Shown here piece after piece: positions 2,407 through 50,173 of a DNA stretch of 64,000 nucleotides (positions within the stretch are counted from its first letter, which is position 1; the number at the start of each line of letters is the position of its first letter). A program made the position numbers and the translations under genes. Below the pieces are notes generated by a model, which was given only the letters and a program-made list of their open reading frames with translations, searched no databases and was not told the DNA's origin. The DNA comes from a virus (Duplodnaviria; Heunggongvirae; Uroviricota; Caudoviricetes). Location: the IMG/VR virus record IMGVR_UViG_3300037418_003103. The stretch is one strand, 5' to 3'.

Positions 2407-2423
2407 GTTTATAAAAGTTTATA

Positions 2424-4392: not shown

Positions 4393-4425
4393 GAGTTAAT
4401 TTATTATATAAATATTCATAAAAAT

Positions 4426-4450
4426 AAAAAAGCATCAAAAGATGCTTTTT
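4426..4450. terminator. Intrinsic terminator (bidirectional geometry)
   Basis: AAAAAGCATC-AAAA-GATGCTTTTT. Confidence 0.7.
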
Positions 4451-4476
4451 TATTTAAACAAGTATTTAATTAAATT

Positions 4477-5942: not shown

Positions 5943-6005
5943 AAGTTATTTATTTTAATTAAAAATACTAATATTTATTTTAAGAAGCAATTATTTTTAA
6001 AAATA

Positions 6006-6037
6006 GTTGATTCGTAGAGAAATAACGTGTATATTTG
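6006..6037 (+). promoter_or_regulatory. Bacteroidota sigma-A promoter for clpC
   Basis: GTTG-N20-TATATTTG. Confidence 0.7.
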
Positions 6038-6043
6038 ATGTAA

Positions 6044-8533
6044 ATGAAAACTATGAAAAATAACAGCGTATCCTCCTCACTTAAGCTGATAGTTAATAAC
6101 GCTAAAGAAGAGGCAGAATTATTTGGAGACTCTAAGGTTAGGCCAGAGCACTTGCTACTTTCTATCATACATGCAAATGATCCCAGGTGTGCTTCAATAT
6201 TTGAAGCATTAAAAGTAGATACCTCTTACTTATATGACAGAATTAGCGACGCTTTAATGAAGGCCGATTTAAATACTAGAGTGGGAAATAGAAAAGACAC
6301 TATGTTGTTTTCCTCAGAAACAAAATTAGTGTTTAAAGGAATAGATAAGGAATGTGAGTATTTGAAAGATAAATCAATAGAATCTACGCATTTGTTTTTA
6401 TCAATTTTAAGTATTAAATCTCCTTTAAGTATAATGCTATTTGAAATGGGCATTAGTTATATGATGGTAAAGAATTGCATTAAATCTATTAGGTCAGATG
6501 TAACTAACGGCGTAACTAATGAAGATTTTGATGATAACCAATTTAGTAAGCCCGCTAAAAGAACATCAAATAAAACGGTTGTGTTGGATAATTTTTGTAG
6601 AGATATTTCAGCCGCAGTAAAAAATGGTGAAGTAGACAAAGTAGTTGGAAGAAAAGCGGAGATTAAAAGAGTCGCTCAGATTTTATCAAGAAGACGCAAA
6701 AATTCCCCTGTTTTAATTGGCGTCGCAGGATCTGGTAAAACAGCTATTGTAGAGGGACTAGCTCAATTAATAAATAACGGAGAAACGCCAAGAACTCTAA
6801 TAGGAAAAAGAATTTTATCTCTGGATCTTGCAGCTATGGTAGCTGGTACTAAATATCGCGGTCAATTTGAAGAGAGAATGAAAGCCGTAATGGAAGAGTG
6901 TAAAGGTAATAAGGATGTCATTTTATTTATTGATGAATTGCATACTATGGTTGGGGCTGGAAACTCATCTGGTTCTATGGATGCTTCTAACATACTTAAA
7001 CCAGCTCTATCACGAGGTGAAATTCAAATTATCGGCGCAACTACCTTAGATGAATATCGTGAAAACATAGAAAAAGATGGGGCATTAACCAGAAGATTTC
7101 AGCAAGTTTTAATACAGGAGCCGTCACTTAAAGAAACTATTACTATTCTTTCACAAATTAAAGACAAGTATGAAAAACATCATAATGTTTTTTACACTGA
7201 TGAGGCTATTGAGGAATGTGTTAAACTAGCTGATAGATATATTATGGATAGAGCAATGCCAGACAAAGCAATTGACGTATTGGACGAGGCTGGCGCAGCA
7301 ACAAATATGAATATAGAGAAATCAGAAAAATTAAAAAATCTTGAAATAGAAAAAGAAAAAATTGCACAGAAAAAAGTTGAGGTGGTTGCAAAACAAAGGT
7401 ATGAAGATGCAGCTAAATTAAGAGATGAAGAGAAAAAAATTGAGGCTATTCTAATTGAGGCGACAAAGGAATGGAACACACTTCTAAGTAAAGAAGTAAA
7501 GATCGTAGATGCTACTCTAGTTTCAGAAGTTGTGTCTAATATGACAGGAATTCCCTTATCTAAAATTTCTGTACAAGAAACCAAAAAATTAGTAAACTTA
7601 GATAAGGAGCTTCAAGAGAAATTAATTGGCCAAGATGAAGCGGTGACCAAGGTTGTTAAAGCCATAAAAAGAAGCAGGGTTGGAATTAAAGATAAGAATA
7701 AACCAGTGGCTTCTTATATATTTCTAGGGCCAACAGGGGTTGGTAAAAGCATGCTTGCTAAATTAATTGCTGAATACGTTTATGGGGATGCGGATTCATT
7801 AGTAAGAATGGATATGAGCGAGTATATGGAAAAATTCTCAGTATCAAGACTCATAGGCCCACCTCCAGGGTATGTAGGATATGAACAGGGAGGACAGTTA
7901 ACTGAAAAAATTAGAAGAAAACCATATAGCGTAATACTATTTGATGAAATAGAAAAAGCCCATGAAGATGTTTTTAACCTTCTGCTTCAACTATTAGATG
8001 AAGGCCAGTTAACTGATGGGCTTGGAAGGAAAGTTAACTTTAAAAATTCTCTAATTATTCTCACATCAAATGTTGGTGTTTCCGAATTAAATAGTTTTGG
8101 AAAAACTATGGGATTTGAAACCCCTTACGAATCAGCTAATCAAGAAGAAAGAAATAAATCAATAATCGACAAAGCTTTAAAGAAAAAATTTAAACCTGAA
8201 TTCCTTAACAGGATTGATGAAGCAATAGTTTTCAATAGTTTATCTGAAGAAAATATTCACAAAATTATTTACTGTGAAGTTGCAAAGTTAGAAAAAAGGC
8301 TTAGTGAGATAGGATATAAAATCAAGCTGAGTGAAACAGCTTTGAATTACATAGCTAAGAATGGATACGATAAGAAATATGGCGCAAGGCCACTTAATAG
8401 AGCTATTCAACGTTATGTAGAAGATCCTATTGCCGATGAAATATTAAATGGTAAAATTAAAGAGGGAGAAACCATTAAAATAAATTACGATGAAAAAAAT
8501 GATATCATAAGTGTCACATCATCTAAAAAATAA
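6044..8533 (+). CDS. clpC: ClpC-type AAA+ chaperone / Clp protease ATPase subunit
   Basis: Clp N-domain; Walker A GVAGSGKT and GPTGVGKS; LFIDELH and LFDEIEKAH Walker B; short UVR-like M-domain ([12 protein letters not shown]). Confidence 0.93.
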
Positions 8534-8541
8534 CTAACCTT

Positions 8542-8568
8542 AAAACCGCAATTATTTTGCGGTTTTTT
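8542..8568 (+). terminator. Intrinsic terminator after clpC
   Basis: AAAACCGCAA-loop-TTGCGGTTTTTT. Confidence 0.8.
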
Positions 8569-8585
8569 AATATATTTATTGACAG

Positions 8586-8987
8586 GTGAAAACATATATT
8601 AAACAATTATTACGGGAAGAATTATTATCTCAAGATAAAACTGATGTGATAAAAATCACAGACTTTATTAATTTTACTAAAAAGTATCTTGATATAAAGG
8701 ATGATATTAAAGTTAAACTAGCTTATGAACGTACTCCTGACCTACAAACTACCGCATATTATGAAATGGGTAAGATGATAAAGGTTTATGTTAAAAACAG
8801 ATCATCCTGTGACTTTTTCCGTTCCATCGCTCACGAACTAGTTCATCATAAACAATTTATTGAAAACAGATTAACCAGTCCGTCTAAGGATGGAGAAGAT
8901 GGATCGCCAATAGAAAATGAAGCAAATGCTAAGGCAGGTGAAATTATTAGACAATACGGAAAGTTGCATCCCGAAATTTATACTTAA
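8586..8987 (+). CDS. Putative zinc metallopeptidase-like protein (HExxH)
   Basis: RSIAHELVHHKQ plus ENEANAKAG; N-terminal LLREE; ATATTTAT upstream. Confidence 0.65.
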   Translation: MKTYIKQLLREELLSQDKTDVIKITDFINFTKKYLDIKDDIKVKLAYERTPDLQTTAYYEMGKMIKVYVKNRSSCDFFRSIAHELVHHKQFIENRLTSPSKDGEDGSPIENEANAKAGEIIRQYGKLHPEIYT

Positions 8988-9014
8988 TTAAAATTATTTT
9001 TGTACATTTGTGGT

Positions 9015-10172
9015 ATGAAACGCTTAATGAAATATTTAGCCCATAAATTATGTATTAAAAATGATGTCCGTCAATTTTTAAAAATTTACGTTCCAGAAGA
9101 TATTTTGGACTTGAAAGAGATTTTTAAGCGAGGCGGGTATCAACTTTATATGGTTGGAGGTTGTGTTAGGGATTCTCTATTAGGTGACTTGATTAAAGAT
9201 TATGACCTGGCAACAGATGCACTTCCTGATGACGTTGAAACATTGCTTAATAGCAATGGTTTTAAGACCCTTGCTACGGGTAAATCATTCGGAGTTATTA
9301 ATGTTTTTACTAAAAATAACGAATATGAAATAGCTTCGTTCAGGTCAGATCTAACTAAGGGTAGGCACCCCGCAGTTAAATTCACTAATATAAACTCTGA
9401 TGCTAAAAGAAGGGACATTTCGATTAATGCTTTATACTATGATATAGACGCAGAATGCGTTATTGATCTTGTTGGTGGGATGCATGATTTAAAAAATAGC
9501 ATGGTTAGGACGGTAGGCCCAGCTCTAGATAGATTCAAAGAAGACCCTTTGAGAGTGCTTAGATGCATTAGGTTTGCGGCTAGATTTAATTCAATTATTG
9601 ATAAATCTGTAAATAAGGCATTGAAGACTCCGATTAATTTGAATGAAGTATCAGCTGAAAGAATTAAAGAAGAATTTATAAAAGGAATTGAGTCGGCTAA
9701 GGATGTCAGAAATTATCTAGGCCTTTTAAGCGAATATAATTTATTTAAATGGGTCTTTCCTGGTCTTAAAATTTACCATAATTTTTTTGATGATAAGGAT
9801 TACATTTTTATAGTAGCTTGTCTACTGAAGAATAATCATCATAGTATCCTTAAAAAATGGCTCATTGAACACAAGTATTCAAGATCAGAGAGTAAAGTAA
9901 TTACTTTTTTAGTATCTCTGCAAACTCTATCACCTGATACTGCATTTAAACTTAAGTCTAGTCAGAACGGTGTTAACGTTACCGATGAACAGATCATCAA
10001 GTTCTGTAACTTAGGATATGTGCAGCACAATATGGTTAAAGCGTTCACAAAATATGAACTAAGTGTGGACGGTGATGAAGTCAAAAATAATTTTAGCCTT
10101 AAAGAAGGTAGAGAGCTTGGATTAAAAATAGCTGAAATAGAAAAACAAGAATTTCTTTCTCTAATTCATTAA
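9015..10172 (+). CDS. Class II tRNA nucleotidyltransferase (CCA-adding enzyme/poly(A) polymerase family)
   Basis: VGGCVRD, DYDLATD, RRDISINAL, EDPLRVLRCIRF; start moved to ATG 9015 downstream of the TACATTTG box. Confidence 0.92.
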   Translation: MKRLMKYLAHKLCIKNDVRQFLKIYVPEDILDLKEIFKRGGYQLYMVGGCVRDSLLGDLIKDYDLATDALPDDVETLLNSNGFKTLATGKSFGVINVFTKNNEYEIASFRSDLTKGRHPAVKFTNINSDAKRRDISINALYYDIDAECVIDLVGGMHDLKNSMVRTVGPALDRFKEDPLRVLRCIRFAARFNSIIDKSVNKALKTPINLNEVSAERIKEEFIKGIESAKDVRNYLGLLSEYNLFKWVFPGLKIYHNFFDDKDYIFIVACLLKNNHHSILKKWLIEHKYSRSESKVITFLVSLQTLSPDTAFKLKSSQNGVNVTDEQIIKFCNLGYVQHNMVKAFTKYELSVDGDEVKNNFSLKEGRELGLKIAEIEKQEFLSLIH

Positions 10173-10236
10173 TACAAACGACAATAGGTAAGAGCGTTGT
10201 TATGTACTCTTACCCATAATTTTTTATTCGGTTAAT

Positions 10237-10431
10237 TTATTTTACTATAGATGCAAATTTAGCTTCTAAATCAGCTATTTTAGATTCCAAAAGAGCTGTT
10301 TTATCACCTTTTTTGGCTTGTTCACTAATCCATTCTTTCTTCTTAACAACAAGAGCTTCAGTTACGATATTATCGATTAGATCGACAAGGTCCTTTTCGT
10401 TAATTTTTACAGTTTTTTTTGTATTACCCAT
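10237..10431 (-). CDS. Small hypothetical protein, putative head-internal
   Basis: 64 aa with INE, VTE, ISE and LLE motifs; ATATTTAT at 10468-10475. Confidence 0.65.
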   Translation of the reverse strand: MGNTKKTVKINEKDLVDLIDNIVTEALVVKKKEWISEQAKKGDKTALLESKIADLEAKFASIVK

Positions 10432-10503
10432 TTTATTTATTTAGGTTAATTTTTATTATTATCTTAAATAAATATGCGGAAGAGGAATAAAAAAAATTTT
10501 TTT

Positions 10504-11889
10504 TTAATGAATCATTACATTAGGGAGTAGGGAGGTCAATTTGCAAGTGTCTTCAAAGCTTAGATTCGACCTATCGATAGAGAACGTAACCAATGAACCG
10601 CCATTTGAAGAATCTAAATATTTTAATTCGTCAGGAATTTTACTTATTTTATTACCCTTTAAATTTAAGAAAGCCAATTTTTTTAAATTACAAATTTCTT
10701 TAGGTATTTCTTTTATTTTATTATTAGGTAGAGATAACATTTCTAATTTATTTAAACTTCCAATAGAAGTATGAATATTTTTAAGGTCACAATTAGCCAT
10801 GGTAAGCATATCAACATTACTAAAGGAGGAAATATCTGGTATTTCCACTATGTGCTTATCCATTAATGTAATGACAGGAGTTCTTTTGTCCATTAATTCA
10901 AATATACAGTTATCAAAGCCAAGCATCAATAAAGCATCTACATACTTGTTATCAGTAGGATTAATTGACATTTTTGCCAAGGCTATTAATTCTGAATAGA
11001 AATATTTTTCTATCTCCTCATCAACATCAAATATTTTTTCTCTAATGTTTACATGCGAATTAGATTTATTCATATATTGACCAGTTTCTATATGAATTTG
11101 ATACAATTCGTCTGAATCTCCATTTAAAAATTTATTATTTATTATAATATATAAGTCTGATTTTTTACCGTTAGGCTTTTTATTATCGGTATAATGCTCA
11201 AACATTCCATTATCTTTGACAGAAGTACACCAGCTAACAAATTTTCCGAATATCACGCTAGCATCCCTTGTTTTAGGTATATAAACAGTAAAATATCTAT
11301 CCTTGAATGGTATGATAGCTTGTTTAGACGATACATATCTATTAATCAGATTAAGCATCGCTCCAGCCGATTTTTCTATGAAGGGATCAACAGCTTCAAA
11401 TAGTTGAGATAAACTTTTATACTGGTTTATATCGGTATAGTCAGTAATGCTTTTTAAAATAAAATTACCACTACACAAAGAAGCAAATTTATTTTTACGT
11501 TTGTTTTCCTCAAATACTAAAAATAGTTTACTTGCTTGGGGGAGATCTTCTGTTACAAATCGTAACGCTTCTTTTACATTCTCTTTAATTAATCTTACAA
11601 ATGCATTGAGCATCCATTGAACAAAAACGAAATTTTTGCTTGGATCAGCAGCTATCATATCAGAAAAAACAAGTTGCGAGATGCTTGCCCTCTTATTAAT
11701 TATCTCATCGCCTTTTTCTTCTCCTAAGATAATAGCCAAACATTTAGAGGTTTTGGGATCGGTTAGAAAATTACATACGCCTAATTTAGAAAATTCTTCA
11801 CACTTCTTTTTAATTTCTTCAGAATCTTCCTCAAATATGTCGAATTTTTTTGCAAGAAATATAAGTCTGTTTGACGCTGAAGTGGGCAT
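10504..11889 (-). CDS. Leucine-rich repeat protein
   Basis: C-terminal LxxLxLxxNxIxxIP repeats (LEMLSLPNNKIKEIPKEICNLKKLAFLNLKGNKISKIP); central SWCTS motif. Confidence 0.8.
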   Translation of the reverse strand: MPTSASNRLIFLAKKFDIFEEDSEEIKKKCEEFSKLGVCNFLTDPKTSKCLAIILGEEKGDEIINKRASISQLVFSDMIAADPSKNFVFVQWMLNAFVRLIKENVKEALRFVTEDLPQASKLFLVFEENKRKNKFASLCSGNFILKSITDYTDINQYKSLSQLFEAVDPFIEKSAGAMLNLINRYVSSKQAIIPFKDRYFTVYIPKTRDASVIFGKFVSWCTSVKDNGMFEHYTDNKKPNGKKSDLYIIINNKFLNGDSDELYQIHIETGQYMNKSNSHVNIREKIFDVDEEIEKYFYSELIALAKMSINPTDNKYVDALLMLGFDNCIFELMDKRTPVITLMDKHIVEIPDISSFSNVDMLTMANCDLKNIHTSIGSLNKLEMLSLPNNKIKEIPKEICNLKKLAFLNLKGNKISKIPDELKYLDSSNGGSLVTFSIDRSNLSFEDTCKLTSLLPNVMIH

Positions 11890-11928
11890 TTTTCACTTTT
11901 TTACAAAGTTACTAAATAAACTTTAAAA

Positions 11929-12267
11929 TTAGCAAAATCTTTTATAGAAATCCTCTTCAAGGTACTCTTCAATTCTTCTTTTCAAGAGCCAGGAAAGAGC
12001 ACTAAGGTTTTCGTTAGAGTATTTATCGAAAGTATTTAAAATAACCTCATTAGGATTATCGCCATCAGTTACACGATATTTAAATTCTTTAAGTATGTTT
12101 TCATCGATAGTTAAGAATTCTTTGAGGATTATATTATAAGTTTCCCATCGTTCGTTTTCTTGCTCATTTTGCTTACTAATAACATTATTTATAAACAATA
12201 GGTATTCTTTATCAAGTTTAGTATTCTTACCTGCGCCCGTTTTTAAAATAAAATTTGTGATTTCCAT
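11929..12267 (-). CDS. Hypothetical protein
   Basis: 112 aa ORF; weak similarity to next ORF (KEFKYRVTDGDNPNEV vs KELQYKLTDTVDPNDE). Confidence 0.7.
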   Translation of the reverse strand: MEITNFILKTGAGKNTKLDKEYLLFINNVISKQNEQENERWETYNIILKEFLTIDENILKEFKYRVTDGDNPNEVILNTFDKYSNENLSALSWLLKRRIEEYLEEDFYKRFC

Positions 12268-12293
12268 TTATTTTAAATTTTTTAATGGTTACA

Positions 12294-12620
12294 TCATTTT
12301 TTAAAACTAGTAACCTTATGGTAAAGTCTTTTAAGTTCTGTCGTGTTATCTTTAACACTTTCCATCATTTTTATACACTCATCATTAGGATCAACCGTAT
12401 CGGTTAATTTGTATTGAAGTTCCTTCACGCGTAACATATCTTTTAAAGTATGTTTTAATTCAAGAATAATTTGATTATAAGTAGACCACACTCTCTTTTT
12501 GCTAAAATTACCTTCAATAAGATTCTCTGTTAGTATTGTTTCATACTCACGTTCCAAATATGTTTCAAATTCTCCGTAATTATCTCTTAAAACTCTTTGT
12601 ATTTTATCTCTCAGTTCCAT
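12294..12620 (-). CDS. Hypothetical protein
   Basis: 108 aa ORF; ILTENLIE motif. Confidence 0.7.
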   Translation of the reverse strand: MELRDKIQRVLRDNYGEFETYLEREYETILTENLIEGNFSKKRVWSTYNQIILELKHTLKDMLRVKELQYKLTDTVDPNDECIKMMESVKDNTTELKRLYHKVTSFKK

Positions 12621-12957
12621 CGCTCAAGGCTACATTTTTTGATAAATTATTGTTTTTTATCCTCCCGTGAGACCAATCTGTGACAACTTGTTTTATAAAC
12701 TCGTCACCTAATTTGTATTTATATTTTAAATAATCAAACAAGGCTTTTGGAGTGATGCTTTCCCCATCTACTTTTATCTTAATCATTGGTTTCTCAACGT
12801 ACTCTCCACCTTTTCTTATAACGCCTACAATTGGCTCATAGTTCATATCCAAATCATTCTTGAGCTTCTCGACAACACTTGTGTATATTCTATTTTCTGA
12901 TAGTCTCTTTTCTAGAGACTTATACTGTTGTTCTGTTATGATAAGTCTTACGCTCAT
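12604..12957 (-). CDS. Hypothetical protein, putative head-internal
   Basis: 117 aa; LIITEQQ and LSEN motifs; ATATTTAT at 12962-12969. Confidence 0.7.
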   Translation of the reverse strand: MSVRLIITEQQYKSLEKRLSENRIYTSVVEKLKNDLDMNYEPIVGVIRKGGEYVEKPMIKIKVDGESITPKALFDYLKYKYKLGDEFIKQVVTDWSHGRIKNNNLSKNVALSDGTER

Positions 12958-12993
12958 ATAGATAAATATTTGAAACTGATTAGAAAGGATGGT

Positions 12994-13308
12994 TTAAAGA
13001 CTAAATGAAGCTATTTTTTCTTGAATTTTATGTTTTGGAATATTTCCTATGCTAGAATCTAATAAATTACCGTTTTTAAGGTATAAAACTGTAGGAACGC
13101 TCCTGATAGAATATTCTGTTGTAGCCCTGTCACACTCTTCAATGTTAACCTTACCAAAGGCAACTGAATGATTAATTTCAGATAAACTAGATAGTACAGG
13201 AGTGAGTATTTTACAAGGTTGGCACCATGGAGCTGAAAAAATTATAACCGCGTTTGTATTATTTGCAATAAAATCTTTTAATGTATCGTCTGTTAAATTT
13301 GTTATCAT
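12994..13308 (-). CDS. trxA: Thioredoxin
   Basis: APWCQPCK active site; IRSVPT cis-Pro motif. Confidence 0.93.
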   Translation of the reverse strand: MITNLTDDTLKDFIANNTNAVIIFSAPWCQPCKILTPVLSSLSEINHSVAFGKVNIEECDRATTEYSIRSVPTVLYLKNGNLLDSSIGNIPKHKIQEKIASFSL

Positions 13309-13355
13309 CTTTATTTTACTATAAATATATTCATAGTTAAATAAATCTAAAGGAA

Positions 13356-13622
13356 TTATTTTATTGATACATAAAAATCATTATATATATTAGCTATTAC
13401 GGAGTCGAATTGAGTAAACATTTCATCCATAAAGAAGTTAATAACATAGTTACAAGAATCTTCATCAGTTAAGCCAAACATAGTTCTGACTATATCAGTA
13501 AGATTTAATAAATAAGAATAGTACATGTCAGTATTTTCACTAATAATTGCATTTCTAATGAAAGAGCAAAAAAGTCTATAATTAGAAAAATTGGAGCCTT
13601 TAAATAATTTGAAGGACTCCAT
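13356..13622 (-). CDS. Hypothetical protein
   Basis: ORF with start trimmed to MESFKLF. Confidence 0.45.
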   Translation of the reverse strand: MESFKLFKGSNFSNYRLFCSFIRNAIISENTDMYYSYLLNLTDIVRTMFGLTDEDSCNYVINFFMDEMFTQFDSVIANIYNDFYVSIK

Positions 13623-13665
13623 ACAGATATTAAAATTTATATAGTATCTAATCTTATACATATTT

Positions 13666-13926
13666 ATGACTATGCCGCATAACAAATTAAATGAAATAAT
13701 ATTATTGTTCCTCAATAGAAATTATAAGGTAACAAGAATAAGATATAAAAATAAATTTAAACGAGTTATTCTTATTAACGGTATAATGCACGTATTGACT
13801 GATCAAGCCTCGATAAATGATGTCGAGAAAAAAATTGATAAAGTTCTGCGATTAGTTTTTAATTGTGACGGTGTTGTCTCAAAAAAAGCTTTGAGTAATT
13901 TTTTACCGCGGTTTTTATCCAAGTAA
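13666..13926 (+). CDS. Hypothetical basic protein
   Basis: 86 aa ORF. Confidence 0.5.
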   Translation: MTMPHNKLNEIILLFLNRNYKVTRIRYKNKFKRVILINGIMHVLTDQASINDVEKKIDKVLRLVFNCDGVVSKKALSNFLPRFLSK

Positions 13927-14082
13927 TAATTAATTTATAAATAATACTTATTTTATTTTTAATATAGGATATGAACGGCATGATACCTAATAAGTATAAT
14001 AGGCTTGGATGGCCTTCACCGCAAAAGCCAAATAAGTGAGCAATGTATTCCATGTTTTTGCTCAAAGTTACTACAATTTTTA

Positions 14083-14520
14083 TTAGATATCAATTTGTTT
14101 ATTAGGAAAATTTTTTATGATCTCATGTTCCAGGGCCTTTTCAGCCACTTCCTTTAACGGAAACAATACAAAATCAAGGGCGTTAATTTTATTAGTAACC
14201 GTTCTCTCAATTGAAGAAGCTTGGTCATACATATCTATATACACTTGATCATCAGGATCATGTGAATCTATCCATTGATAAACTAAACTGCATTTTTTGG
14301 AAAAAGAATGTTCTATTGCACTAACAGAGTGGCCAATATCTTCTAAAGGAATTTCATTATTAAAAATTTCGTTTAGCGTTACAAAACTTAACTTAGAATA
14401 TATTTGATCAAGGCTATGCGCTGCTTTTTCAGCAAACGTTCTAAGTTCAGAAAGCATGTCTGAATTTTCTGTAATCAATTTTAGCCTATGCACCTGGCTT
14501 TCAAGTAGCTTAATTCTCAT
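14083..14520 (-). CDS. Hypothetical protein, putative head-internal
   Basis: 145 aa; KLLESQ and LITEN motifs; ATATTTAT at 14534-14541. Confidence 0.7.
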   Translation of the reverse strand: MRIKLLESQVHRLKLITENSDMLSELRTFAEKAAHSLDQIYSKLSFVTLNEIFNNEIPLEDIGHSVSAIEHSFSKKCSLVYQWIDSHDPDDQVYIDMYDQASSIERTVTNKINALDFVLFPLKEVAEKALEHEIIKNFPNKQIDI

Positions 14521-14557
14521 TTTATTTTTTATTATAAATATCTGATATTTATCCTTA

Positions 14558-15085
14558 GTGAAATTAACAATAGAAATGATTCCTAATACTTGTGCTTTTA
14601 GTAATATTAGAACCTGTATTAAGCCAAGCCAGTGGGATAAAATAAGAAAACTATCTTACTCTATGGCCATGAATAGGTGTGAAATATGTGAAGGAAGAGG
14701 TAAGAGACAAGGATTTAAACATGATTTAGAGTGCCATGAAATATTTGAATATGATGATGTGAATAAGGTTCAAAAGTTAATCGGTCTTGTTTCGTTGTGT
14801 CCAATTTGTCACTTGGTTAAACACTTTGGTAGGGCAAGTGCCATCGGTAAACAAGCTATATGTATGAAGCAACTCCAGAAGTTAAATTCCTGGACACACA
14901 AGGATGTTGTCACCTACCTGAAGGAAGTATATGAATTACATAAAGAACGCTCTAAATATGAATGGAAGCTTGATTTAAGCATCCTAAACGAAGATCCATA
15001 CAATTTAAAATTAGACTTGAATAAAGAACGCGTTTTTAAAGTAAAGAAATACAGAAAAAGAAAGCACAAAAAAAAGAATAAATAA
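14558..15085 (+). CDS. HNH endonuclease-like protein
   Basis: CEIC...LECHEIFEY...LVSLCPICHLVKH zinc/HNH pattern; basic tail. Confidence 0.8.
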   Translation: MKLTIEMIPNTCAFSNIRTCIKPSQWDKIRKLSYSMAMNRCEICEGRGKRQGFKHDLECHEIFEYDDVNKVQKLIGLVSLCPICHLVKHFGRASAIGKQAICMKQLQKLNSWTHKDVVTYLKEVYELHKERSKYEWKLDLSILNEDPYNLKLDLNKERVFKVKKYRKRKHKKKNK

Positions 15086-15086
15086 A

Positions 15087-15497
15087 TTATTTGAGGAATA
15101 TATCAATCACACTTCCCTGGCCATCCATTCTTCTAAAGAAGTATCCGTCAATGTAATACATCATACTTGTAAACATGTTTCCATGTTCTATATATTCTTC
15201 ACTGGTTGCTTCTCTTCCATATTTTTCAGCATAATCAAATAAAAACCAAAATAAAGATTGCGGTGGTTCAATTCCCCGATCCAACCATCTGTAAATGTAT
15301 TTATTTGATTCGTATTTGATTCTTATTTTATAGAATATTTCTCCGATAGAATTAGCATATTTATCATGGAACCTATTAAGTTGAGACTGGCGCACAGCCT
15401 TCTCATTATTAATTTTAACGGCCCATTCTTCAAGTGCCTTTTGACCATCTTCCGAATCTAAGTAATCCAACATCTTAGAATATATATTTTTACTCAT
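15087..15497 (-). CDS. Hypothetical protein
   Basis: 136 aa ORF. Confidence 0.7.
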   Translation of the reverse strand: MSKNIYSKMLDYLDSEDGQKALEEWAVKINNEKAVRQSQLNRFHDKYANSIGEIFYKIRIKYESNKYIYRWLDRGIEPPQSLFWFLFDYAEKYGREATSEEYIEHGNMFTSMMYYIDGYFFRRMDGQGSVIDIFLK

Positions 15498-15961
15498 TTT
15501 TTACTCTTCTTTATTTCTAGCTCTTTATCAATAAATGGCTTTTGAATTGTTTTGATACAATCCAGAATAATTCCTTCAAACAGAACGTGAGTTTCGACAG
15601 GCATAACTGAAACAGCTGCCTTGGTTCTCAGTTCATAAAGTGGAACCATTGGATTATCCTTTGAAACTTCAGCCATTTTATTTTCATGACTTTTAGCTTG
15701 TTTTTTAGCAAATATGCTTTGCTCTTCAATCACAGCGTTTCCATCAGCAATCGCCTCAGATAGTAAGCCACCGCTGTTATTAGCTGTTTCTCCAATAAGT
15801 TGCTTATATACCTCATCAATACCTATACTAACAACGCCAGATTTCATTCCCTTTAATTTAAAGTGAAACTTTTGATCAGCGCCAATTGTAACAACTATTT
15901 CCCTTTCATTATGCTTTAGAGTTGTTTCACGGATTAAGTCTTTATCAAGTATTGTTGCCAT
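15494..15961 (-). CDS. Hypothetical protein
   Basis: 155 aa ORF with a sigma-A promoter upstream (TATATTTG at ~15977-15984). Confidence 0.7.
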   Translation of the reverse strand: MATILDKDLIRETTLKHNEREIVVTIGADQKFHFKLKGMKSGVVSIGIDEVYKQLIGETANNSGGLLSEAIADGNAVIEEQSIFAKKQAKSHENKMAEVSKDNPMVPLYELRTKAAVSVMPVETHVLFEGIILDCIKTIQKPFIDKELEIKKSKK

Positions 15962-16048
15962 TAGTTGTTTTTTTTACAAATATAGAGTAATATTTTCATT
16001 TCGCCAAAAAAATTTTGTCGATTCATTTTAATTTTGTATATTTGTATT

Positions 16049-17323
16049 ATGAAACAAAGCCTAATTTTACCCAATCAATTAGATTCATACTTAAATGTCA
16101 AATACGACCTTTACTCAATGAATGCCAGAGAATTAGCTACTTACTTGAAGAACAATCTTGGAGATGAGTACAAAAAACATAACCCCAGTAAGTATGAAGA
16201 GTCTCATGATATCCCAGAATTGTATGAATATCAGCCGTTTTTTTTATACAAAAAGGATGGTGAGTTTAAATTACTGGATGGCTTTAGAAGACTTCTATGG
16301 TACAATGTGCCTGACATTAATATCATAGTTAGAGTATATAAGGATTTATCTGATGTAGAATTACTTGAGTTAATGATTAATTTAAATCATTTTAAATTTT
16401 TCAGCAATCAAAATTATTATGACAGGGGTTTTTCCTTATTTATGAAGACATTTTTTGACTTGGATATTACAGAAAATAGAGAACTTTTCGATCTTTATTT
16501 ATCCACAAAAAGTTCTATTAGTGGTTTTAGAGGTACAGATAATCCAAAAAATTTAGATAAAAATATACTAGTTAAGAAACGAATTTTAACTCCATACTTT
16601 ATTTCTGACATTAGATTTTTATTTAAACTAAAAGAATCTGGATACTGTGTGGTATCTACATTATCAGCTATAATACATAATTTAAGGGCTGAGATAGGGA
16701 ACAAACTTAAATTAGACGTAGATTCGTTTATAGACAGACTGAATCAAAATGTTAAAATGGCAGAGTTGTCTATGAAACTTAAAAACACTCTTACAACAAG
16801 TACGTACTATGCTTCTAACGCTAAATACATTAACACACTAACTCAGTTCTATGAAAAAATTATAAGAGAAGAAAACGGTTATGAATCAAAAATAACTTAC
16901 ACTGAAGAAGTGGACCAAGTTAAAGAGCTAATTGCTAAATACAAGAAGGACAAAAAATGGCGTAAATTAACAAATATCCAGGGAGATAGAAAAAATACTG
17001 AATTAATTCTTGATAAGATTGGTATGGGTAAAAAGATTAATTTTACTGCTATTATCTATCCAAGTGATAAGGATGTCACAAGATGGGGTGATAGCGGATA
17101 CAAGAAAGTAATACCATCTGGTGAACATAAGGATTTAAAATATGAAATAAAAAGTATGATGGGTAGAACTACTTTTTCTCCTAGACGTGCATATTTAGAA
17201 ATTAGTAACGAATTGTTCCGACTTCACAGCCTAAGTGTAGATAAATATAATGAAGTAGAAACACTAGGAGAATATCCTCACGTAAGACAAAAATGTGAAA
17301 TTTTTTATCAAATAATAGATTAA
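16049..17323 (+). CDS. Protein with N-terminal ParB/Srx-like domain
   Basis: PFFLYKKDGEFKLLDGFRRL ParB-like motif; promoter TTTG-N19-TATATTTG at 16014-16044 places start at ATG 16049. Confidence 0.6.
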   Translation: MKQSLILPNQLDSYLNVKYDLYSMNARELATYLKNNLGDEYKKHNPSKYEESHDIPELYEYQPFFLYKKDGEFKLLDGFRRLLWYNVPDINIIVRVYKDLSDVELLELMINLNHFKFFSNQNYYDRGFSLFMKTFFDLDITENRELFDLYLSTKSSISGFRGTDNPKNLDKNILVKKRILTPYFISDIRFLFKLKESGYCVVSTLSAIIHNLRAEIGNKLKLDVDSFIDRLNQNVKMAELSMKLKNTLTTSTYYASNAKYINTLTQFYEKIIREENGYESKITYTEEVDQVKELIAKYKKDKKWRKLTNIQGDRKNTELILDKIGMGKKINFTAIIYPSDKDVTRWGDSGYKKVIPSGEHKDLKYEIKSMMGRTTFSPRRAYLEISNELFRLHSLSVDKYNEVETLGEYPHVRQKCEIFYQIID

Positions 17324-17370
17324 ATGTAAAACCAGGCAATAAATACGCCTGATCTATCCACCACCAATTA

Positions 17371-18600
17371 TCACAAATAATTAAAATTCAATCGGAGATC
17401 ATTAAACCAGGTGTATTTTTTACCAGTAATTCTAACGTAGTCGTTAAACTTATGAATCATATTATTTACTTCCTCAGTAATTTCAGCCGTTGGAGTGGTG
17501 TTAGCAAAGCTTTTTATCTGAGATAACGAAATTATATCATCATCTGTTTCTGGATTCAATAATTTAATAATAGAAAAGTTGTACTCATCAATTTCTGATT
17601 TGTCTGGGTAATGCAAGCCAATCTCAATTGTACAACCTCTATAGTGATAAATTCCACAAGCACCATCCTCAATTTTACTTATGTAAGTTGCAACGCAATT
17701 TTTATTATTTAATCCTTCCATGTAAAGCAACTTATTTGTGGTAGGCATAAAATAGTCTGAATACTCAGCAAAGTCAATAAAGACTTGATTTATTTTTAAG
17801 TCCATATCTGATTCATAGGATAATATTATTCTAGTATACTCTTTGGTCCATTTATCATGCTCTTCCTTTAATCTTCTTTCGCTCCATTTACAATTTATCT
17901 TTTTATTAAGTGCCGACGCCAGTCTAATTGAATCTATAAAATAACTTGATTCTAAAAAATCCAACCTCAGTAATTGAGTGTTGATGAGCGATTTTCTATA
18001 TTCTTTCCATGTATTTAGAAATTCTACATAACCACCTATTTTTTTAGTGTGTTCAAGTAAAACCTTACACGTGATTTTATTTTCTTTAAATATATAACTA
18101 AGCAGCTTAGTAAGACTAAATAATTTATTTTTAATGATGGTGTTTATATTTGTACCGTGAGCAATGCTGGTTTCGAGTAATATTTGAAGCCAAGGAAATT
18201 TTTTTACTAATAATGTAATCAATTTTTCTTTTGTTTTTGATGGAATAATATTAAAAAATTGGTACAGCCTATTTATGGTTAAATCATAGATACAATGCTT
18301 ACTTCCTTGCTTATTTCTAAAGTATAATTTTTTGTTTTTATAAATTATAGACATAAGCTGTTCTTGATTGGAAAACATCTTGCACGTGGTACTTATTCCA
18401 TAATTTTTTTTAAAAATAATTACTGAAAAATCATCGCTATTCTCTTCATAACAGTACAGAACTTTTTTTATAAAGATGTTTTTATAACCAATGGATTTAT
18501 ATATTACTAATGCGTGTTGTTTGTTATTAGCATAAACTTCTTTTAATCGATTGACGTCTTCAGAAGTTCCCTCGTAGATAATTTTAAATGGCCTAGTCAT
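17371..18600 (-). CDS. PcfJ-like domain protein
   Basis: EGLNNKNCVATY...GIYHY...TIEI...QIKSFAN matches the PcfJ C-terminal pattern. Confidence 0.7.
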   Translation of the reverse strand: MTRPFKIIYEGTSEDVNRLKEVYANNKQHALVIYKSIGYKNIFIKKVLYCYEENSDDFSVIIFKKNYGISTTCKMFSNQEQLMSIIYKNKKLYFRNKQGSKHCIYDLTINRLYQFFNIIPSKTKEKLITLLVKKFPWLQILLETSIAHGTNINTIIKNKLFSLTKLLSYIFKENKITCKVLLEHTKKIGGYVEFLNTWKEYRKSLINTQLLRLDFLESSYFIDSIRLASALNKKINCKWSERRLKEEHDKWTKEYTRIILSYESDMDLKINQVFIDFAEYSDYFMPTTNKLLYMEGLNNKNCVATYISKIEDGACGIYHYRGCTIEIGLHYPDKSEIDEYNFSIIKLLNPETDDDIISLSQIKSFANTTPTAEITEEVNNMIHKFNDYVRITGKKYTWFNDLRLNFNYL

Positions 18601-18645
18601 AAAGTTTTATAAAAGTACTAAAAATAAATTAAGTAAGCAATAAAT

Positions 18646-19119
18646 TTACACTTTGTTTGCGTAATATTTCATATAGGATATAAGACATTTTGACTTCAGC
18701 TTATTAAATTTGTTAATGTTTACAGGAATAGATAATTTTTGTGCTAGAATAAGCGCCTCTTCCCATGCGCGATACTCTTCATGAAAGCATTCAATATAAT
18801 ATTGAGTGCATCTTGTATTTCGTTTCTTATTCTTGCCTAGTCGCAATTCTTCTTCTAGAGAAATAATAGGAAAATTATTCTTAAATATAGACCATTTCTT
18901 TCTTAATTCGTGATGGCCTAGTTCATGCAGAAATAAATAGATACTTGTCTCAATATTAGTTTTCCGTTCAACTAATATTTTGTTAGGCACGTTAAGTGAG
19001 GTGTCTTTCCATAAAACCTGAGAATCAATTCCGTACTCAAAAATCACCTCTTTAAAGCCCTCATCATTTGCATACTGAGTTAAAGTCTTAATACATTTAG
19101 TTAAAGATATCCTTGCCAT
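18646..19119 (-). CDS. Putative metallopeptidase (ImmA/IrrE-like HExxH)
   Basis: FLHELGHH...EEYRAWEEA. Confidence 0.6.
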   Translation of the reverse strand: MARISLTKCIKTLTQYANDEGFKEVIFEYGIDSQVLWKDTSLNVPNKILVERKTNIETSIYLFLHELGHHELRKKWSIFKNNFPIISLEEELRLGKNKKRNTRCTQYYIECFHEEYRAWEEALILAQKLSIPVNINKFNKLKSKCLISYMKYYANKV

Positions 19120-19396
19120 TAACTATAAATAGTTAAATGGACTATTTTATAGCTCTATGACGATAAATTACTTAAAAAATTATAAACGAAATAGTAATTA
19201 AAACTATTAATATTACGCTTAAGACACTAATAGATAAAATCTCTCCGTAATTGGTTTTTTTAATAAATTTGTCTTCAATGATCGGTAATTTATCTGTTAA
19301 AACGTTGATTCCTTCTAAAATTTCTGCTATTCTCTTGGTCATTGTATAAGGTGTGGGTTAAGAAATAACAACTCTAAACACTAATATCTTAAATAC

Positions 19397-20170
19397 TTAA
19401 TTATTAACAGGGATAAGACCTATTAAAAAACTTCTATCCTGAGTAAAAATGGGTATTTCATCCATTCGTTTCCATTCGCTTCTGACTACTCCTGGCGATT
19501 TTTCATACACATGTTTAGTAATTATTCTACCTCTCTTATATTTAGATTCATAATCGTTCCAATTTATACCTGATTTTTGAAAAATCATATCTTGTTGTTT
19601 ATTTGTTGTTTTACCATGAAGTTCCTTACTTGAAAACATACTCTGAGCAACGGAAGAAATTGAATTTCTAGTGGTATCCTGTTGCCTCCATATAAAGTAG
19701 TTTTCAACTTCTGCACGTTGAGGTATTTGAAAAACACGAGAATCAAATTCAGCCATTTTTAAAAAATCTTTAATATTAATAGTCTCTTCTTTTGAACCTG
19801 TAATTAACCTATTAAATCTGGCTTCGTTAAATGCTTTAGTAGCCATAGAAGCCGATACACTACACATTTTCTGTAAGTTGTTATCAAACCAAGCCTGTGT
19901 TGTTATATCATTGAAATCGGTAAGAAGAATGCTTATTTCATCTGATTGTGTAAAGGCAAATTGAGCACCCATTATGTTCTTACATAGATACGCTGCGGTT
20001 GTGTCTATATCATCTATAAGAGTGTCATCAAATGGACGCTGTAGTTTTCTGGTATAAGTATGAAAAGCTTTCCCGTCAATTCTAATAATTGTATAAGCTC
20101 TCCGTGGCAATGAGAAACGAGTTCTGTCTTCATATGCGGTTTTAATTCTGTCGCCAAGTTGATCTATCAT
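19397..20170 (-). CDS. thg1: tRNA(His) guanylyltransferase Thg1-like protein
   Basis: IRIDGKAFHTYT, FTQSDEISILL, FDSRVF, YFIWRQQD. Confidence 0.93.
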   Translation of the reverse strand: MIDQLGDRIKTAYEDRTRFSLPRRAYTIIRIDGKAFHTYTRKLQRPFDDTLIDDIDTTAAYLCKNIMGAQFAFTQSDEISILLTDFNDITTQAWFDNNLQKMCSVSASMATKAFNEARFNRLITGSKEETINIKDFLKMAEFDSRVFQIPQRAEVENYFIWRQQDTTRNSISSVAQSMFSSKELHGKTTNKQQDMIFQKSGINWNDYESKYKRGRIITKHVYEKSPGVVRSEWKRMDEIPIFTQDRSFLIGLIPVNN

Positions 20171-49156: not shown

Positions 49157-49234
49157 GATAAATTTTTTAAATGATTAATATTATGCTGCAAATATAAGAC
49201 TAATTATTTACTTCACCAAATTTATTTTAAAAGT

Positions 49235-49260
49235 AATGCCCGATAGAATTATCGGGCATT
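49235..49260 (-). terminator. Hairpin terminator
   Basis: AATGCCCGATA-GAAT-TATCGGGCATT. Confidence 0.75.
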
Positions 49261-49420
49261 TGTTGTTGAAGGCAACTATTGATAGAACCGAGAGAAGGCA
49301 AAAGACTAAAATACCTCCTGTAACTAAACCAAATCACAAGAGGTATTAACGTTTATAAAAAATCAAGTCTGTATAAAGATATGTAAATGTTTTGAAACTA
49401 CCAAATTTATTTTTATTTAC

Positions 49421-49498
49421 CTCTTAGTCTCTTGCTATTCAGCATTGTAGGCGTGTATCGGCGCCTCGTTGTTCGGTCATTTAGACCTACACTAAGAG
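49421..49498 (-). ncRNA. Candidate multi-stem RNA immediately 3' of the tRNA-like element
   Basis: 8-bp closing stem 49421-28/49491-98 plus internal hairpins. Confidence 0.4.
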
Positions 49499-49500
49499 CG

Positions 49501-49632
49501 TGGGATGAATGGGGAGTTGAACCCCATAAGTCTCTAAGTATGGGAAGTTATTTTTACAAACGTATCTATGCGGTTGCAACCGCACATCAACTTTAACCAT
49601 ACTAAGTGTTCTTACATTTGAACTATTCTCCC
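49501..49632 (-). ncRNA. tRNA-like RNA with extended anticodon arm and 53-nt insert
   Basis: GGGAGAA acceptor, UA, D-arm GUUC/GAAC, 10-bp anticodon stem, T-arm UGGGG-UUCAACU-CCCCA, 3' UUCAUCCC-A; no encoded CCA. Confidence 0.7.
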
Positions 49633-49638: not shown

Positions 49639-49863
49639 TTATTCTACTTCTCTTCCAAGAATTTCTTCCAGCTTTGCTTTCAATTCGTGTTTAGCTGCTA
49701 TACCGTAATAATATTGATACAGAAGCAATTGTATTCCTTTATCGGTAGTATCTTTAGGCTGTTCATCTGAATACTTTAGCTTTAAGTAATTCGCTCCCAG
49801 GTCATAAGCGTCCATTTCAAGATAGGGAGTCTCATTTAATTTTTGTATTAGATCTTTCTTCAT
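49639..49863 (-). CDS. Hypothetical protein
   Basis: 74 aa ORF. Confidence 0.6.
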   Translation of the reverse strand: MKKDLIQKLNETPYLEMDAYDLGANYLKLKYSDEQPKDTTDKGIQLLLYQYYYGIAAKHELKAKLEEILGREVE

Positions 49864-50117
49864 ACTTTTTCATTTAGAAGTTCAATAAGTTTTTCAAGAA
49901 CGTATTGAGCCTTGTACGGCATTTCAGATTGAACATCCCTTGTTATGCCGTTGATCGCTGTGATAGCAATATCCCCAACCGTTCTGGCAATCCAATCCAA
50001 TTCAGGATAGGTACGAATAACATCTTCAGTCTTTTTTGGCTCGAAGGTCGTATTTTCAGATAGTGTATTCAACAAGTGAGACATATTAAAATCCTTCTTA
50101 GCGTTTTTCCCTTTCAT
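49860..50117 (-). CDS. Hypothetical cassette protein
   Basis: 85 aa; PYKAQYVLEKLI; promoter at 50133. Confidence 0.7.
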   Translation of the reverse strand: MKGKNAKKDFNMSHLLNTLSENTTFEPKKTEDVIRTYPELDWIARTVGDIAITAINGITRDVQSEMPYKAQYVLEKLIELLNEKV

Positions 50118-50173
50118 GCTATTGATTTAGAATGCAAATATAAGACTAATTATTGAAACGATCAAATTTATTT

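What the first reader, a model, noticed from the sequence alone, without database searches (positions are those of the whole stretch)
49501..49632. tRNA-like RNA whose anticodon loop is replaced by a 53-nt insert
Seen (- strand, starting 6 nt after the stop of 49639..49863): acceptor GGGAGAA/UUC(A)UCCC with discriminator A; U8A9; D-arm GUUC-AAAUGUAA-GAAC; 10-bp anticodon stem CUUAGUAUGG/CCAUACUUAG (one mismatch); 53-nt loop (49596-49544) containing the perfect 16-nt palindrome UGCGGUUGCAACCGCA; 5-6-nt variable region; T-arm UGGGG-UUCAACU-CCCCA. No CCA is encoded, while the genome carries a CCA-type nucleotidyltransferase. Inference: a tRNA mimic or decoy (e.g. against anticodon nucleases or tRNA-sensing defences), a mini-tmRNA-like molecule, or an intron-containing or decayed tRNA.
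Basis: partly seen in the sequence, partly recalled or inferred. Interest (0 to 1): 0.8.

Follow-up and report, generated by a model that had tools for sequence, protein, structure and literature searches.

The report
Orphan insert-bearing tRNA-like phage gene
A giant soil phage carries a real tRNA-shaped gene whose anticodon loop is buried by a 54-base structured insert. It is one more case of the poorly understood "interrupted tRNA genes" of large phages, but it has no relatives anywhere, so its function cannot be settled from sequence.

Summary
The element lies at w49632-49501 on the - strand. It has a tRNA acceptor stem, D arm and T arm, and a 10-bp helix capped by a 53-nt structured loop where the anticodon loop should be.

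It sits in a 345-kb Bacteroidota-type jumbo phage, 6 nt after a small gene, inside an array of 31 near-identical promoters. Standard finders (ARAGORN, Rfam, a lineage tRNA model) do not call it.

Removing 54 nt (w49600-49547) gives an ARAGORN tRNA-Gly(CCC). My control shows that such a call arises by chance for most random middles, so the anticodon assignment carries no weight.

The insert is fitted to its flanks and masks the would-be anticodon loop. The same genome and a 363-kb relative carry other tRNA frames with 34-56-nt inserts at the same 5' edge of the loop. Lak megaphages have published "enigmatic" tRNA introns, and this scan noted similar genes on other DNA.

The phage encodes T4-type PNKP, an Rnl1 ligase and a CCA-adding enzyme, but no EndA, RtcB or SmpB.

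No homolog was found in relatives, IMG/VR, metagenomes or GTDB, and no RNA data were listed. Insert-bearing tRNA gene (0.4), non-decoding tRNA-like RNA (0.3) and decaying relic (0.22) all remain open.

The parts
50135..50169 (-). Bacteroidota-type promoter (AAATTTG-N-TAtaTTTG) that heads the transcription unit
   Evidence: One of 31 copies on the - strand of w36.7-63.1 kb, against 0.23 expected by chance. Sequence read.
49860..50117 (-). 85-aa ORF, first gene of the unit
   Evidence: ORF list. No PHROG family.
49639..49863 (-). 74-aa ORF that ends 6 nt before the element
   Evidence: No PHROG family. No homolog among 5.8 billion proteins.
49501..49632 (-). 132-nt tRNA-shaped element (whole)
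   Evidence: Cloverleaf fold with z -4.1. ARAGORN calls it only with introns allowed and a lowered threshold. Single copy in the genome.
49601..49632 (-). 5' part of the frame (el1-32): acceptor 5' strand, U8A9, D arm GUUC-AAAUGUAA-GAAC, 5' strand of the anticodon stem
   Evidence: Sequence. ARAGORN drawing.
49547..49600 (-). 54-nt insert (el33-86). Its first 4 nt, AUGG, pair with C35C36A37U38 of the would-be loop. Its AAGUUG pairs with UAAC+U32U33. A UUA bulge faces a single bulged C34.
   Evidence: Fold. Fitted to its flanks: z -3.0, 7 of 1000 shuffled inserts fold as well. The insert alone gives z -1.5.
49567..49586 (-). Hairpin built on the 16-nt palindrome UGCGGUUGCAACCGCA (stem of 6-8 bp, loop UGCA/UUGCAA)
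   Evidence: No other copy in the genome. No meaningful match in IMG/VR or metagenomes.
49501..49546 (-). 3' part of the frame (el87-132): would-be anticodon loop UUCCCAU (CCC = w49544-49542), 3' strand of the stem, 7-nt variable region, T arm UGGGG-UUCAACU-CCCCA, acceptor 3' strand with bulged A, discriminator
49421..49498 (-). Second structured RNA, 2 nt downstream: an 8-bp closing stem plus three hairpins. It has a cloverleaf topology but not tRNA geometry.
   Evidence: Fold -25.8 kcal/mol, z -4.2, 0 of 200 shuffles. No ARAGORN or Rfam call.
49370..49410 (-). Degenerate copy of the array promoter: the first half matches the consensus, while the -7 box reads TAtcTTTA
   Evidence: Sequence compared with the 31 copies.
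49310..49347 (-). 16-bp hairpin followed by a U-rich tail, terminator-like
49189..49223 (-). Next promoter copy, which starts the following unit
9000..10172 (+). CCA-adding-type nucleotidyltransferase, the putative 3'-end maturation enzyme for CCA-less phage tRNAs
   Evidence: Pfam PolyA_pol 3.4e-34 and PolyA_pol_RNAbd. 13 of the phage's 14 canonical tRNAs encode no CCA.
19397..20170 (-). Thg1-like tRNA 5'-end nucleotidyltransferase (context: tRNA repair toolkit)
   Evidence: Pfam Thg1 6.6e-26.

Best explanation
The locus is a genuine tRNA-derived gene of the 'interrupted phage tRNA' kind. It has a tRNA frame (acceptor stem, D arm, T arm) and a 54-nt structured insert at the 5' edge of the anticodon loop.

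Shown here:
- The frame and the fold.
- The position directly behind two small ORFs in a promoter-headed unit.
- An insert that is complementary to the would-be loop. U32U33 and C35-U38 are paired and C34 is bulged, so the primary transcript cannot decode.
- Other tRNA frames of this phage and of a relative carry 34-56-nt inserts at the same edge of the loop.
- The phage encodes a CCA-adding enzyme, T4-type PNKP and an Rnl1-family RNA ligase.

Inferred:
- The RNA is cut out of the operon transcript by RNase P at G1 and by a 3' endonuclease after the discriminator, and then receives CCA from the phage enzyme.
- An unidentified endonuclease removes the insert.
- The halves are healed and sealed by PNKP and Rnl1, the pair T4 uses on anticodon-loop breaks.
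- The product is a 77-nt, non-canonical tRNA whose best reading is Gly(CCC).

The frame's defects are: no G18G19, a bulged acceptor, a U.U mismatch in the anticodon stem and a 7-nt variable loop. They suggest a poor or specialised adaptor at best.
For: - Cloverleaf and z-score.
The deleted form passes the default threshold.
- The insert is fitted to its flanks: z -3.0 in context against -1.5 alone. A contiguous 4-bp extension of the stem has about 1% chance.
- The same masking of the anticodon appears in elements A and B of this genome.
- Insert-bearing tRNA frames lie at g48420, g98365, g99175 and g251434. In relative G001 there are tRNA-Pro(UGG)+56 nt and tRNA-Lys(UUU)+41 nt. All sit at positions 31/32-33/34.
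- ARAGORN recovers true insert positions in spiked tRNAs, so the shared position is not a program artefact.
- Rnl1 with an intein lies at g28710-30827 and PNKP at g34848-35690.
- 13 of 14 canonical phage tRNAs lack an encoded CCA.
- Published precedent: Lak megaphage tRNAs with 'enigmatic introns' (PMC6784885).
Against: - Control: with the frame kept, shuffled middles yield an ARAGORN default call after some deletion in 66% of replicates. Random 10-bp helices do so in 93%. The Gly(CCC) reading therefore has no statistical weight.
- The D loop lacks G18G19, the acceptor has a bulge or mismatch, and the variable loop and the 26/27 region are over-long. The phage's other tRNAs are canonical.
- The lineage tRNA model gives 10.1 bits (E 1.2) and Rfam tRNA gives nothing.
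- GGG is the rarest Gly codon (4.9 per 1000), and a tRNA-Gly(UCC) already exists.
- There is no BHB motif, no EndA and no RtcB.
- No homolog exists anywhere, so there is no covariation.
Confidence: 0.4

Rival explanations
1. It is a stable, non-decoding tRNA-like small RNA that works unspliced. The acceptor/T-arm half serves only as a handle for RNase P, 3' trimming and CCA addition, and as protection from exonucleases. The extended arm (10-bp helix, bulges, 3-way junction with the palindromic hairpin) is the functional part. It could be a protein-binding module, a decoy for nucleases or sensors that act on tRNA, or a 3' 'punctuation'/stabiliser of the upstream mRNA.
For: - The parts needed for processing are intact: 7 Watson-Crick acceptor pairs, a canonical T arm and G53-C61.
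- The parts needed on the ribosome are degenerate or absent: no G18G19 and no anticodon loop.
- Only two blemishes occur in 39 pairs.
- It lies in an array of 31 strong promoters driving tiny orphan genes, the kind of early accessory region where counter-defence functions sit.
- A second structured RNA follows 2 nt later (z -4.2). This resembles the T4 rnaD-rnaC tandem next to tRNA-Arg.
- T4 rnaC (139 nt) also folds into a closing stem, a canonical T arm and long arms. Its function is still unknown (PMC9697503).
- The phage carries anticodon-break repair enzymes, so tRNA-targeting defence is a live issue for it.
Against: - No homolog and no covariation were found. No second gene shares this frame with another insert.
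- The insert alone is not unusually structured (z -1.5).
- No partner protein is identifiable, because the neighbours are orphans.
Confidence: 0.3
2. It is a decaying relic of an interrupted tRNA gene. It is no longer selected and is carried along in a fast-turnover accessory region.
For: - It is an orphan in every collection searched.
- It has several departures from tRNA rules: a lost GG, a bulged A in the acceptor, a U.U mismatch in the anticodon stem and an over-long variable region.
- It lies outside the phage's tRNA cluster.
- A degenerate promoter copy and about 180 nt without an ORF follow it.
- Relative G001 holds several degenerate tRNA-like hits of 18-28 bits in its tRNA cluster, so tRNA decay is common in this lineage.
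Against: - 37 of 39 designed pairs are intact, and the insert-exon complementarity is preserved (z -3.0).
- Phage genomes shed useless DNA quickly.
- The sequence is identical in contigs of independent soil and rhizosphere runs. That shows only recent identity, not selection.
Confidence: 0.22
3. It is a miniature tmRNA. The tRNA-like ends would be charged with alanine, and the loop would supply a short tag frame (GCG GUU GCA ACC GCA UAG = AVATA-stop).
For: - In ARAGORN's acceptor alignment there is a G3.U70 pair.
- The T loop UUCAACU gives a weak partial Rfam tmRNA match (12.5 bits).
- A 5-codon alanine-rich frame ending in UAG lies in the palindrome (read).
Against: - ARAGORN -m finds nothing, and Rfam tmRNA is far below its 47-bit gathering score.
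- There is a real 4-bp D stem and no pseudoknot.
- The G.U alignment needs an adjacent A.A mismatch and discriminator C. The more stable alignment has G3-C.
- The frame lies entirely inside a perfect palindrome, where Ala codons arise trivially.
- The phage has no SmpB.
Confidence: 0.02

Closest known systems
'Enigmatic' introns in tRNA genes of Lak megaphages (Devoto et al. 2019, PMC6784885)
   Same: Both are huge phages of Bacteroidota. Both have tRNA genes missed under bacterial settings because a short, non-group-I insert interrupts the anticodon region. The mechanism of removal is unknown in both.
   Different: Lak introns are conserved (often identical) across cohorts, and some look like tRNAs themselves. 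This insert is an orphan and is not tRNA-shaped. It sits in a frame that is itself non-canonical.
Protein-spliced tRNA introns of archaea and eukaryotes (BHB motif, EndA/TSEN, RtcB or Trl1)
   Same: The insert is short. Its sequence pairs with the anticodon and extends the anticodon stem. A healing-and-sealing ligase pathway (PNKP + Rnl1, analogous to Trl1 chemistry) is encoded by the phage.
   Different: There is no bulge-helix-bulge. The insert lies at 31/32, not 37/38. The phage has no EndA or RtcB. The cutting enzyme is unknown.
Bacteriophage T4 RNA C / RNA D (species 1 and 2 stable RNAs)
   Same: Both are ~120-140-nt stable-RNA-sized genes lying next to each other and to tRNA-type genes. 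rnaC folds with a closing stem, a canonical T arm (CCGGG-UUCGAAU-CCCGG) and long extra arms. Its function is unknown (PMC9697503).
   Different: There is no detectable sequence similarity. T4 rnaC has no D arm, and its long arms are arranged differently. Expression of the present RNA has not been shown.
Group I introns in bacterial and phage tRNA anticodon loops
   Same: Both interrupt the anticodon loop of a tRNA gene.
   Different: 54 nt is several-fold too short for a group I core. No Rfam intron or ribozyme family matches even at E 10.

Membership tests
Canonical tRNA (Rfam RF00005 / ARAGORN default) | Scores above threshold with tRNA detectors | tested here: not met
   ARAGORN default finds 0 genes in the window. 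Rfam gives no hit at gathering threshold and no tRNA hit at E<=10. The lineage tRNA model R2 gives 10.1 bits, E 1.2, against 40-80 bits for canonical tRNAs.
Canonical tRNA (Rfam RF00005 / ARAGORN default) | 7-bp acceptor, 4-bp D stem, 5-bp T stem with T54-Psi55-C56-R57-A58 loop, U8 | tested here: met
   Read from the sequence and the fold. The acceptor has 7 Watson-Crick pairs only if A127 is bulged.
Canonical tRNA (Rfam RF00005 / ARAGORN default) | G18G19 in the D loop (elbow) and a free 7-nt anticodon loop | tested here: not met
   The D loop is AAAUGUAA. The would-be loop UUCCCAU is paired with the insert.
Interrupted phage tRNA genes (Lak-type 'enigmatic introns') | tRNA frame plus a short non-ribozyme insert in the anticodon loop, whose removal restores a tRNA call | tested here: inconclusive
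   Exactly one of 1242 deletions (el33-86) gives a default ARAGORN call, Gly(CCC). But 66-93% of randomised middles also give a call.
Interrupted phage tRNA genes (Lak-type 'enigmatic introns') | Recurrence of the design in the same lineage, at the same loop position | tested here: met
   Elements A, B, D and F of this genome, and tRNA-Pro+56 nt and tRNA-Lys+41 nt of relative G001, have inserts at 31/32-33/34. Positions are recovered correctly in spiked controls.
Interrupted phage tRNA genes (Lak-type 'enigmatic introns') | The same insert or gene conserved in related phages, or an uninterrupted allele | tested here: not met
   Model R1 finds nothing in 30 related records. nhmmer and blastn with the exons, the spliced form and the insert find nothing in 5 fetched relatives.
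BHB (protein-spliced) tRNA intron | Bulge-helix-bulge: two 3-nt bulges 4 bp apart that carry the splice sites | tested here: not met
   The fold has a UUA bulge opposite a 1-nt bulge. The predicted junctions lie inside helices.
BHB (protein-spliced) tRNA intron | Splicing endonuclease (EndA) and RtcB available | tested here: not met
   PF01974 and PF01139 are absent from the complete phage genome, and the control genomes ring. The host was not testable.
Group I intron / small self-cleaving ribozymes | Match to a ribozyme family | tested here: not met
   No such Rfam match at E<=10 in w49300-49800. The insert is only 54 nt.
tmRNA | tmRNA detectors, pseudoknots, G3.U70 with A73, tag frame, SmpB partner | tested here: not met
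   ARAGORN -m finds nothing. Rfam tmRNA matches the T arm only, at 12.5 of 47 bits. The phage has no SmpB. G3.U70 appears only in the less stable alignment.
T4 RNA C-type stable tRNA-like RNA | Stable, end-processed RNA in infected cells | not testable with these tools
   No RNA run was listed for this DNA. The architecture comparison comes only from folds.

The most novel reading that the evidence does not exclude
The unspliced 132-nt RNA is the product. It would be an early-expressed, tRNA-processed but non-decoding RNA. The tRNA 'top half' would give it maturation and stability. Its long arm, possibly together with the cloverleaf-like RNA 2 nt downstream, would titrate or misdirect a host factor that inspects tRNA anticodon arms, such as an anticodon nuclease or a tRNA-sensing defence. 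This would be a phage counter-defence by tRNA mimicry, not by tRNA repair or replacement.
Probability: 0.15. Interest if true: 0.75.

Novelty: new member of a known kind. Interest (0 to 1): 0.42.

Why it matters
Short, non-self-splicing inserts in phage tRNA genes have been reported (Lak megaphages) but never explained. If such RNAs are spliced in bacteria, an undescribed tRNA-splicing route exists, perhaps built on phage PNKP/Rnl1 repair enzymes. If they are not spliced, phages make tRNA-framed small RNAs of unknown use.

This locus adds a soil jumbo phage example with a clear architecture: the anticodon loop is fully masked and the insert sits at 31/32. The genome carries both the repair enzymes and several sister genes.

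As a single orphan with a defective frame, it is a weak test case on its own. The canonical-framed sister genes of the same phage are better targets.

Tried and rejected
**Homolog searches (all empty or chance)**
- blastn against 50,697 phage records, at E 1e-5 and at E 10.
- Exact-pattern scans of IMG/VR for the 5' half, the 3' half and the palindrome.
- Neighbour proteins of 290, 494 and 74 aa found only the phage itself.
- Model R1 on 30 MCP-related records, including two complete genomes.
- nhmmer and blastn on 5 fetched relatives.
- Two metagenome pattern scans. One found nothing. The other gave a single chance hit inside a GC-rich coding region.
- A GTDB scan for the D arm gave 120 or more random matches, none with tRNA context.

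**Sequencing runs**
- No RNA holder was listed.
- The DNA contigs laid on the locus were identical to it, so they offer no variants for covariation.

**Other checks**
- The deletion scan, used as evidence for Gly(CCC), was rejected after the randomisation control.
- The lineage tRNA model cannot bridge 53-54-nt inserts. Element B also scores only about 9 bits, so the low score for this element is uninformative about the frame.
- Codon-usage support: GGG is the rarest Gly codon, so there is none.
- A MITE-like reading (6-nt direct repeat ACTTAG flanking el32-93) was considered and dropped. The repeat follows from a near-palindromic stem.
- Antisense targets of the insert in the genome: only chance-level 13-mers.

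Full report
**Context**

The window is the reverse strand of g100530-164529 of a 345,454-bp IMG/VR virus record with direct terminal repeats. The record encodes a large terminase, a portal, an HK97-type major head protein and T4-like baseplate wedge proteins. It is therefore a tailed jumbo phage.

In the window, 31 near-identical promoters of the Bacteroidota type (AAATTTG-N-TAnnTTTG) lie on the - strand between w36.7 and w63.1 kb, against 0.23 expected by chance. Each heads a unit of one to three tiny genes that match no PHROG family. DNA of this phage occurs in rhizosphere and soil runs.

**The observation**

I number the element el1-132, with w = 49633 - el.

- It starts 6 nt after the TAA of the 74-aa ORF.
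- Acceptor: GGGAGAA pairs with UUC(A)UCCC.
- U8A9, then D arm GUUC-AAAUGUAA-GAAC.
- A 10-bp helix with one U.U mismatch.
- A 53-nt loop that contains a perfect 16-nt palindrome.
- T arm UGGGG-UUCAACU-CCCCA, with no encoded CCA.

The only correction is that the variable region is 7 nt. The minimum-energy fold is this cloverleaf (z -4.1). Inside the loop the fold adds three features:

- a 3-nt bulge (UUA);
- a second 6-bp helix, AAGUUG/UAACUU;
- a three-way junction that bears the palindromic hairpin.

**Detectors**

- ARAGORN at default settings and Rfam at gathering threshold find nothing in the window.
- At E<=10, Rfam gives only a 12.5-bit match of the T arm to tmRNA.
- ARAGORN with introns allowed and a threshold lowered by 10% calls tRNA-Gly(CCC) with a 54-nt insert.
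- A covariance model built from 22 canonical tRNAs of this phage and of a relative gives the element 10.1 bits (E 1.2). Canonical tRNAs score 40-80 bits. The model equally fails on sister element B, so it cannot bridge such inserts.

**What the deletion scan is worth**

Of 1242 internal deletions, exactly one (el33-86) gives a default ARAGORN call. It is a 77-nt tRNA-Gly(CCC) with loop UUCCCAU.

I then kept the frame and randomised the middle. 66% of fully shuffled middles and 93% of random 10-bp helices also gave at least one default call. The anticodon assignment therefore carries no statistical weight. What is real is the frame, not the identity.

**What is non-random about the insert**

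Alone, the insert is not unusually structured (z -1.5). In the context of its flanks it is (z -3.0; 7 of 1000 shuffled inserts fold as well).

- Its first four bases extend the anticodon stem by pairing with positions 35-38. This has about 1% chance.
- A second segment pairs with the insert's own 3' end plus positions 32-33.
- Only position 34 is left bulged.

The would-be anticodon loop is thus completely masked. Sister elements A and B mask their anticodons in the same way.

**The lineage habit**

ARAGORN with introns finds further tRNA frames with inserts of 34-56 nt in this genome, at g48420, g98365, g99175 and g251434. A 363-kb relative (MCP 57% identical) has tRNA-Pro(UGG)+56 nt and tRNA-Lys(UUU)+41 nt inside or near its tRNA cluster.

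In all of them the insert lies at the 5' edge of the loop (31/32 to 33/34), not at the archaeal/eukaryal 37/38. Spiking random 54-mers into canonical tRNAs shows that ARAGORN reports true positions, so this is not a program bias.

Devoto et al. 2019 reported 'enigmatic introns' in the tRNAs of Lak megaphages, which infect Prevotella, and called them the first introns reported in phage tRNAs (PMC6784885). Earlier notes of this scan describe the sister cluster of this genome and many similar genes in other phages. I used them as leads only.

**Enzymes**

The complete genome has no RtcB, no EndA-type splicing endonuclease and no SmpB, and the control genomes ring for each. It does encode:

- an Rnl1-family RNA ligase interrupted by a LAGLIDADG intein (g28710-30827);
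- a T4-type PNKP (g34848-35690);
- a weak Rnl2-like ORF;
- a CCA-adding enzyme and a Thg1-like protein.

13 of the 14 canonical phage tRNAs lack an encoded CCA, so the missing CCA here is normal for this phage. By established knowledge, PNKP plus Rnl1 is the pair that T4 uses to reseal anticodon-loop breaks made by PrrC. It could seal exon halves, but nothing here identifies the nuclease that would cut.

**Points against a working adaptor**

- The D loop has no G18G19, unlike almost all other tRNAs of the phage.
- The acceptor needs a bulged A, or else a G.U plus an A.A.
- The anticodon stem has a U.U mismatch.
- The variable region and the 26/27 junction are over-long.
- GGG is the rarest glycine codon (4.9 per 1000), and a tRNA-Gly(UCC) already exists.

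These features fit either a non-decoding tRNA-like RNA or a decaying gene.

**The non-decoding reading**

The features kept are the ones that RNase P, 3' processing and CCA addition need. A second, strongly structured 78-nt RNA follows 2 nt downstream (z -4.2).

This pairing recalls T4 rnaD-rnaC, which sit side by side next to tRNA-Arg. rnaC folds into a closing stem, a canonical T arm and long arms. Both T4 RNAs are still of unknown function (PMC9697503).

**Orphan status**

Every search for a relative failed:

- phage records;
- IMG/VR patterns;
- neighbour proteins;
- the element's covariance model on 30 related records (it scores 169.5 bits on itself);
- profile and BLAST searches on five fetched relatives;
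- metagenome scans and GTDB scans.

There is therefore no covariation evidence for or against any structure.

**Verdict**

How it works remains open. My odds are:

- 0.40 for an insert-bearing tRNA gene of the Lak type that needs excision to decode;
- 0.30 for a stable non-decoding tRNA-like RNA;
- 0.22 for a decaying relic;
- 0.02 for a mini-tmRNA.

It is a new member of a known but unexplained kind. Its value is mainly as one more data point, and as a pointer to the better-formed sister genes of the same phage.

Noticed in passing
window 36702-63111, - strand: There are 31 copies of a highly conserved Bacteroidota-type promoter (AAATTTGG..AATAATTAGTCTTATATTTG), about one every 860 bp. Each heads 1-3 tiny orphan genes. 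0.23 copies are expected by chance. It looks like an early, hypervariable accessory-gene array.
   Followed up: partly
window 49421-49498, - strand: A second structured RNA lies 2 nt after the tRNA-like element. It has an 8-bp closing stem and three hairpins (z -4.2). The topology is cloverleaf-like but the geometry is not that of a tRNA, and no detector calls it.
   Followed up: partly
window 49230-49410, - strand: A degenerate copy of the array promoter is followed by about 180 nt without an ORF. This stretch holds two long perfect hairpins: 16 bp at 49310-49347 with a U-rich tail, and 11 bp at 49235-49260.
   Followed up: no
G000 g28710-30827 and g34848-35690 (L007:4711-6828 and 10849-11691): An Rnl1-family RNA ligase is split by an intein with a LAGLIDADG endonuclease. 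A T4-type PNKP (kinase plus HAD phosphatase) lies about 4 kb downstream. Together they form a complete anticodon-break repair pair.
   Followed up: partly
window 49569-49584 vs G000 g337388-337459: The palindromic hairpin of the insert (UGCGG-UUGCAA-CCGCA) resembles the anticodon arm of the phage's own tRNA-Cys(GCA) (UGUGG-UUGCAAC-CCACA). 14 of 16 positions match, with one compensatory pair change and one loop base missing. By my estimate this is within chance for a genome of this size.
   Followed up: partly
L117 (relative G001, 1-20000), - strand 7240-17582: The relative's tRNA cluster holds 16 canonical tRNAs and a tRNA-Pro(UGG) with a 56-nt insert (13400-13527). That tRNA-Pro has an odd D loop (AACAGUA) and T loop (UGCAAAU). 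At least seven further degenerate tRNA-like hits score 18-28 bits with the lineage model.
   Followed up: partly
window 48941 / 50131: One soil-run contig joins these two points and skips 1189 bp. Both points lie next to promoter copies, so recombination between promoter repeats might delete whole cassettes, including this one. The evidence is weak: a single contig, a 42-nt side and the 80% likeness setting.
   Followed up: no
L153:2209-2282 and 2509-2583 (G000 g335008-335081, g335308-335382): Two members of the canonical tRNA cluster have odd anticodon loops by ARAGORN: an undetermined 'aa' loop and tRNA-Tyr(AUA).
   Followed up: no
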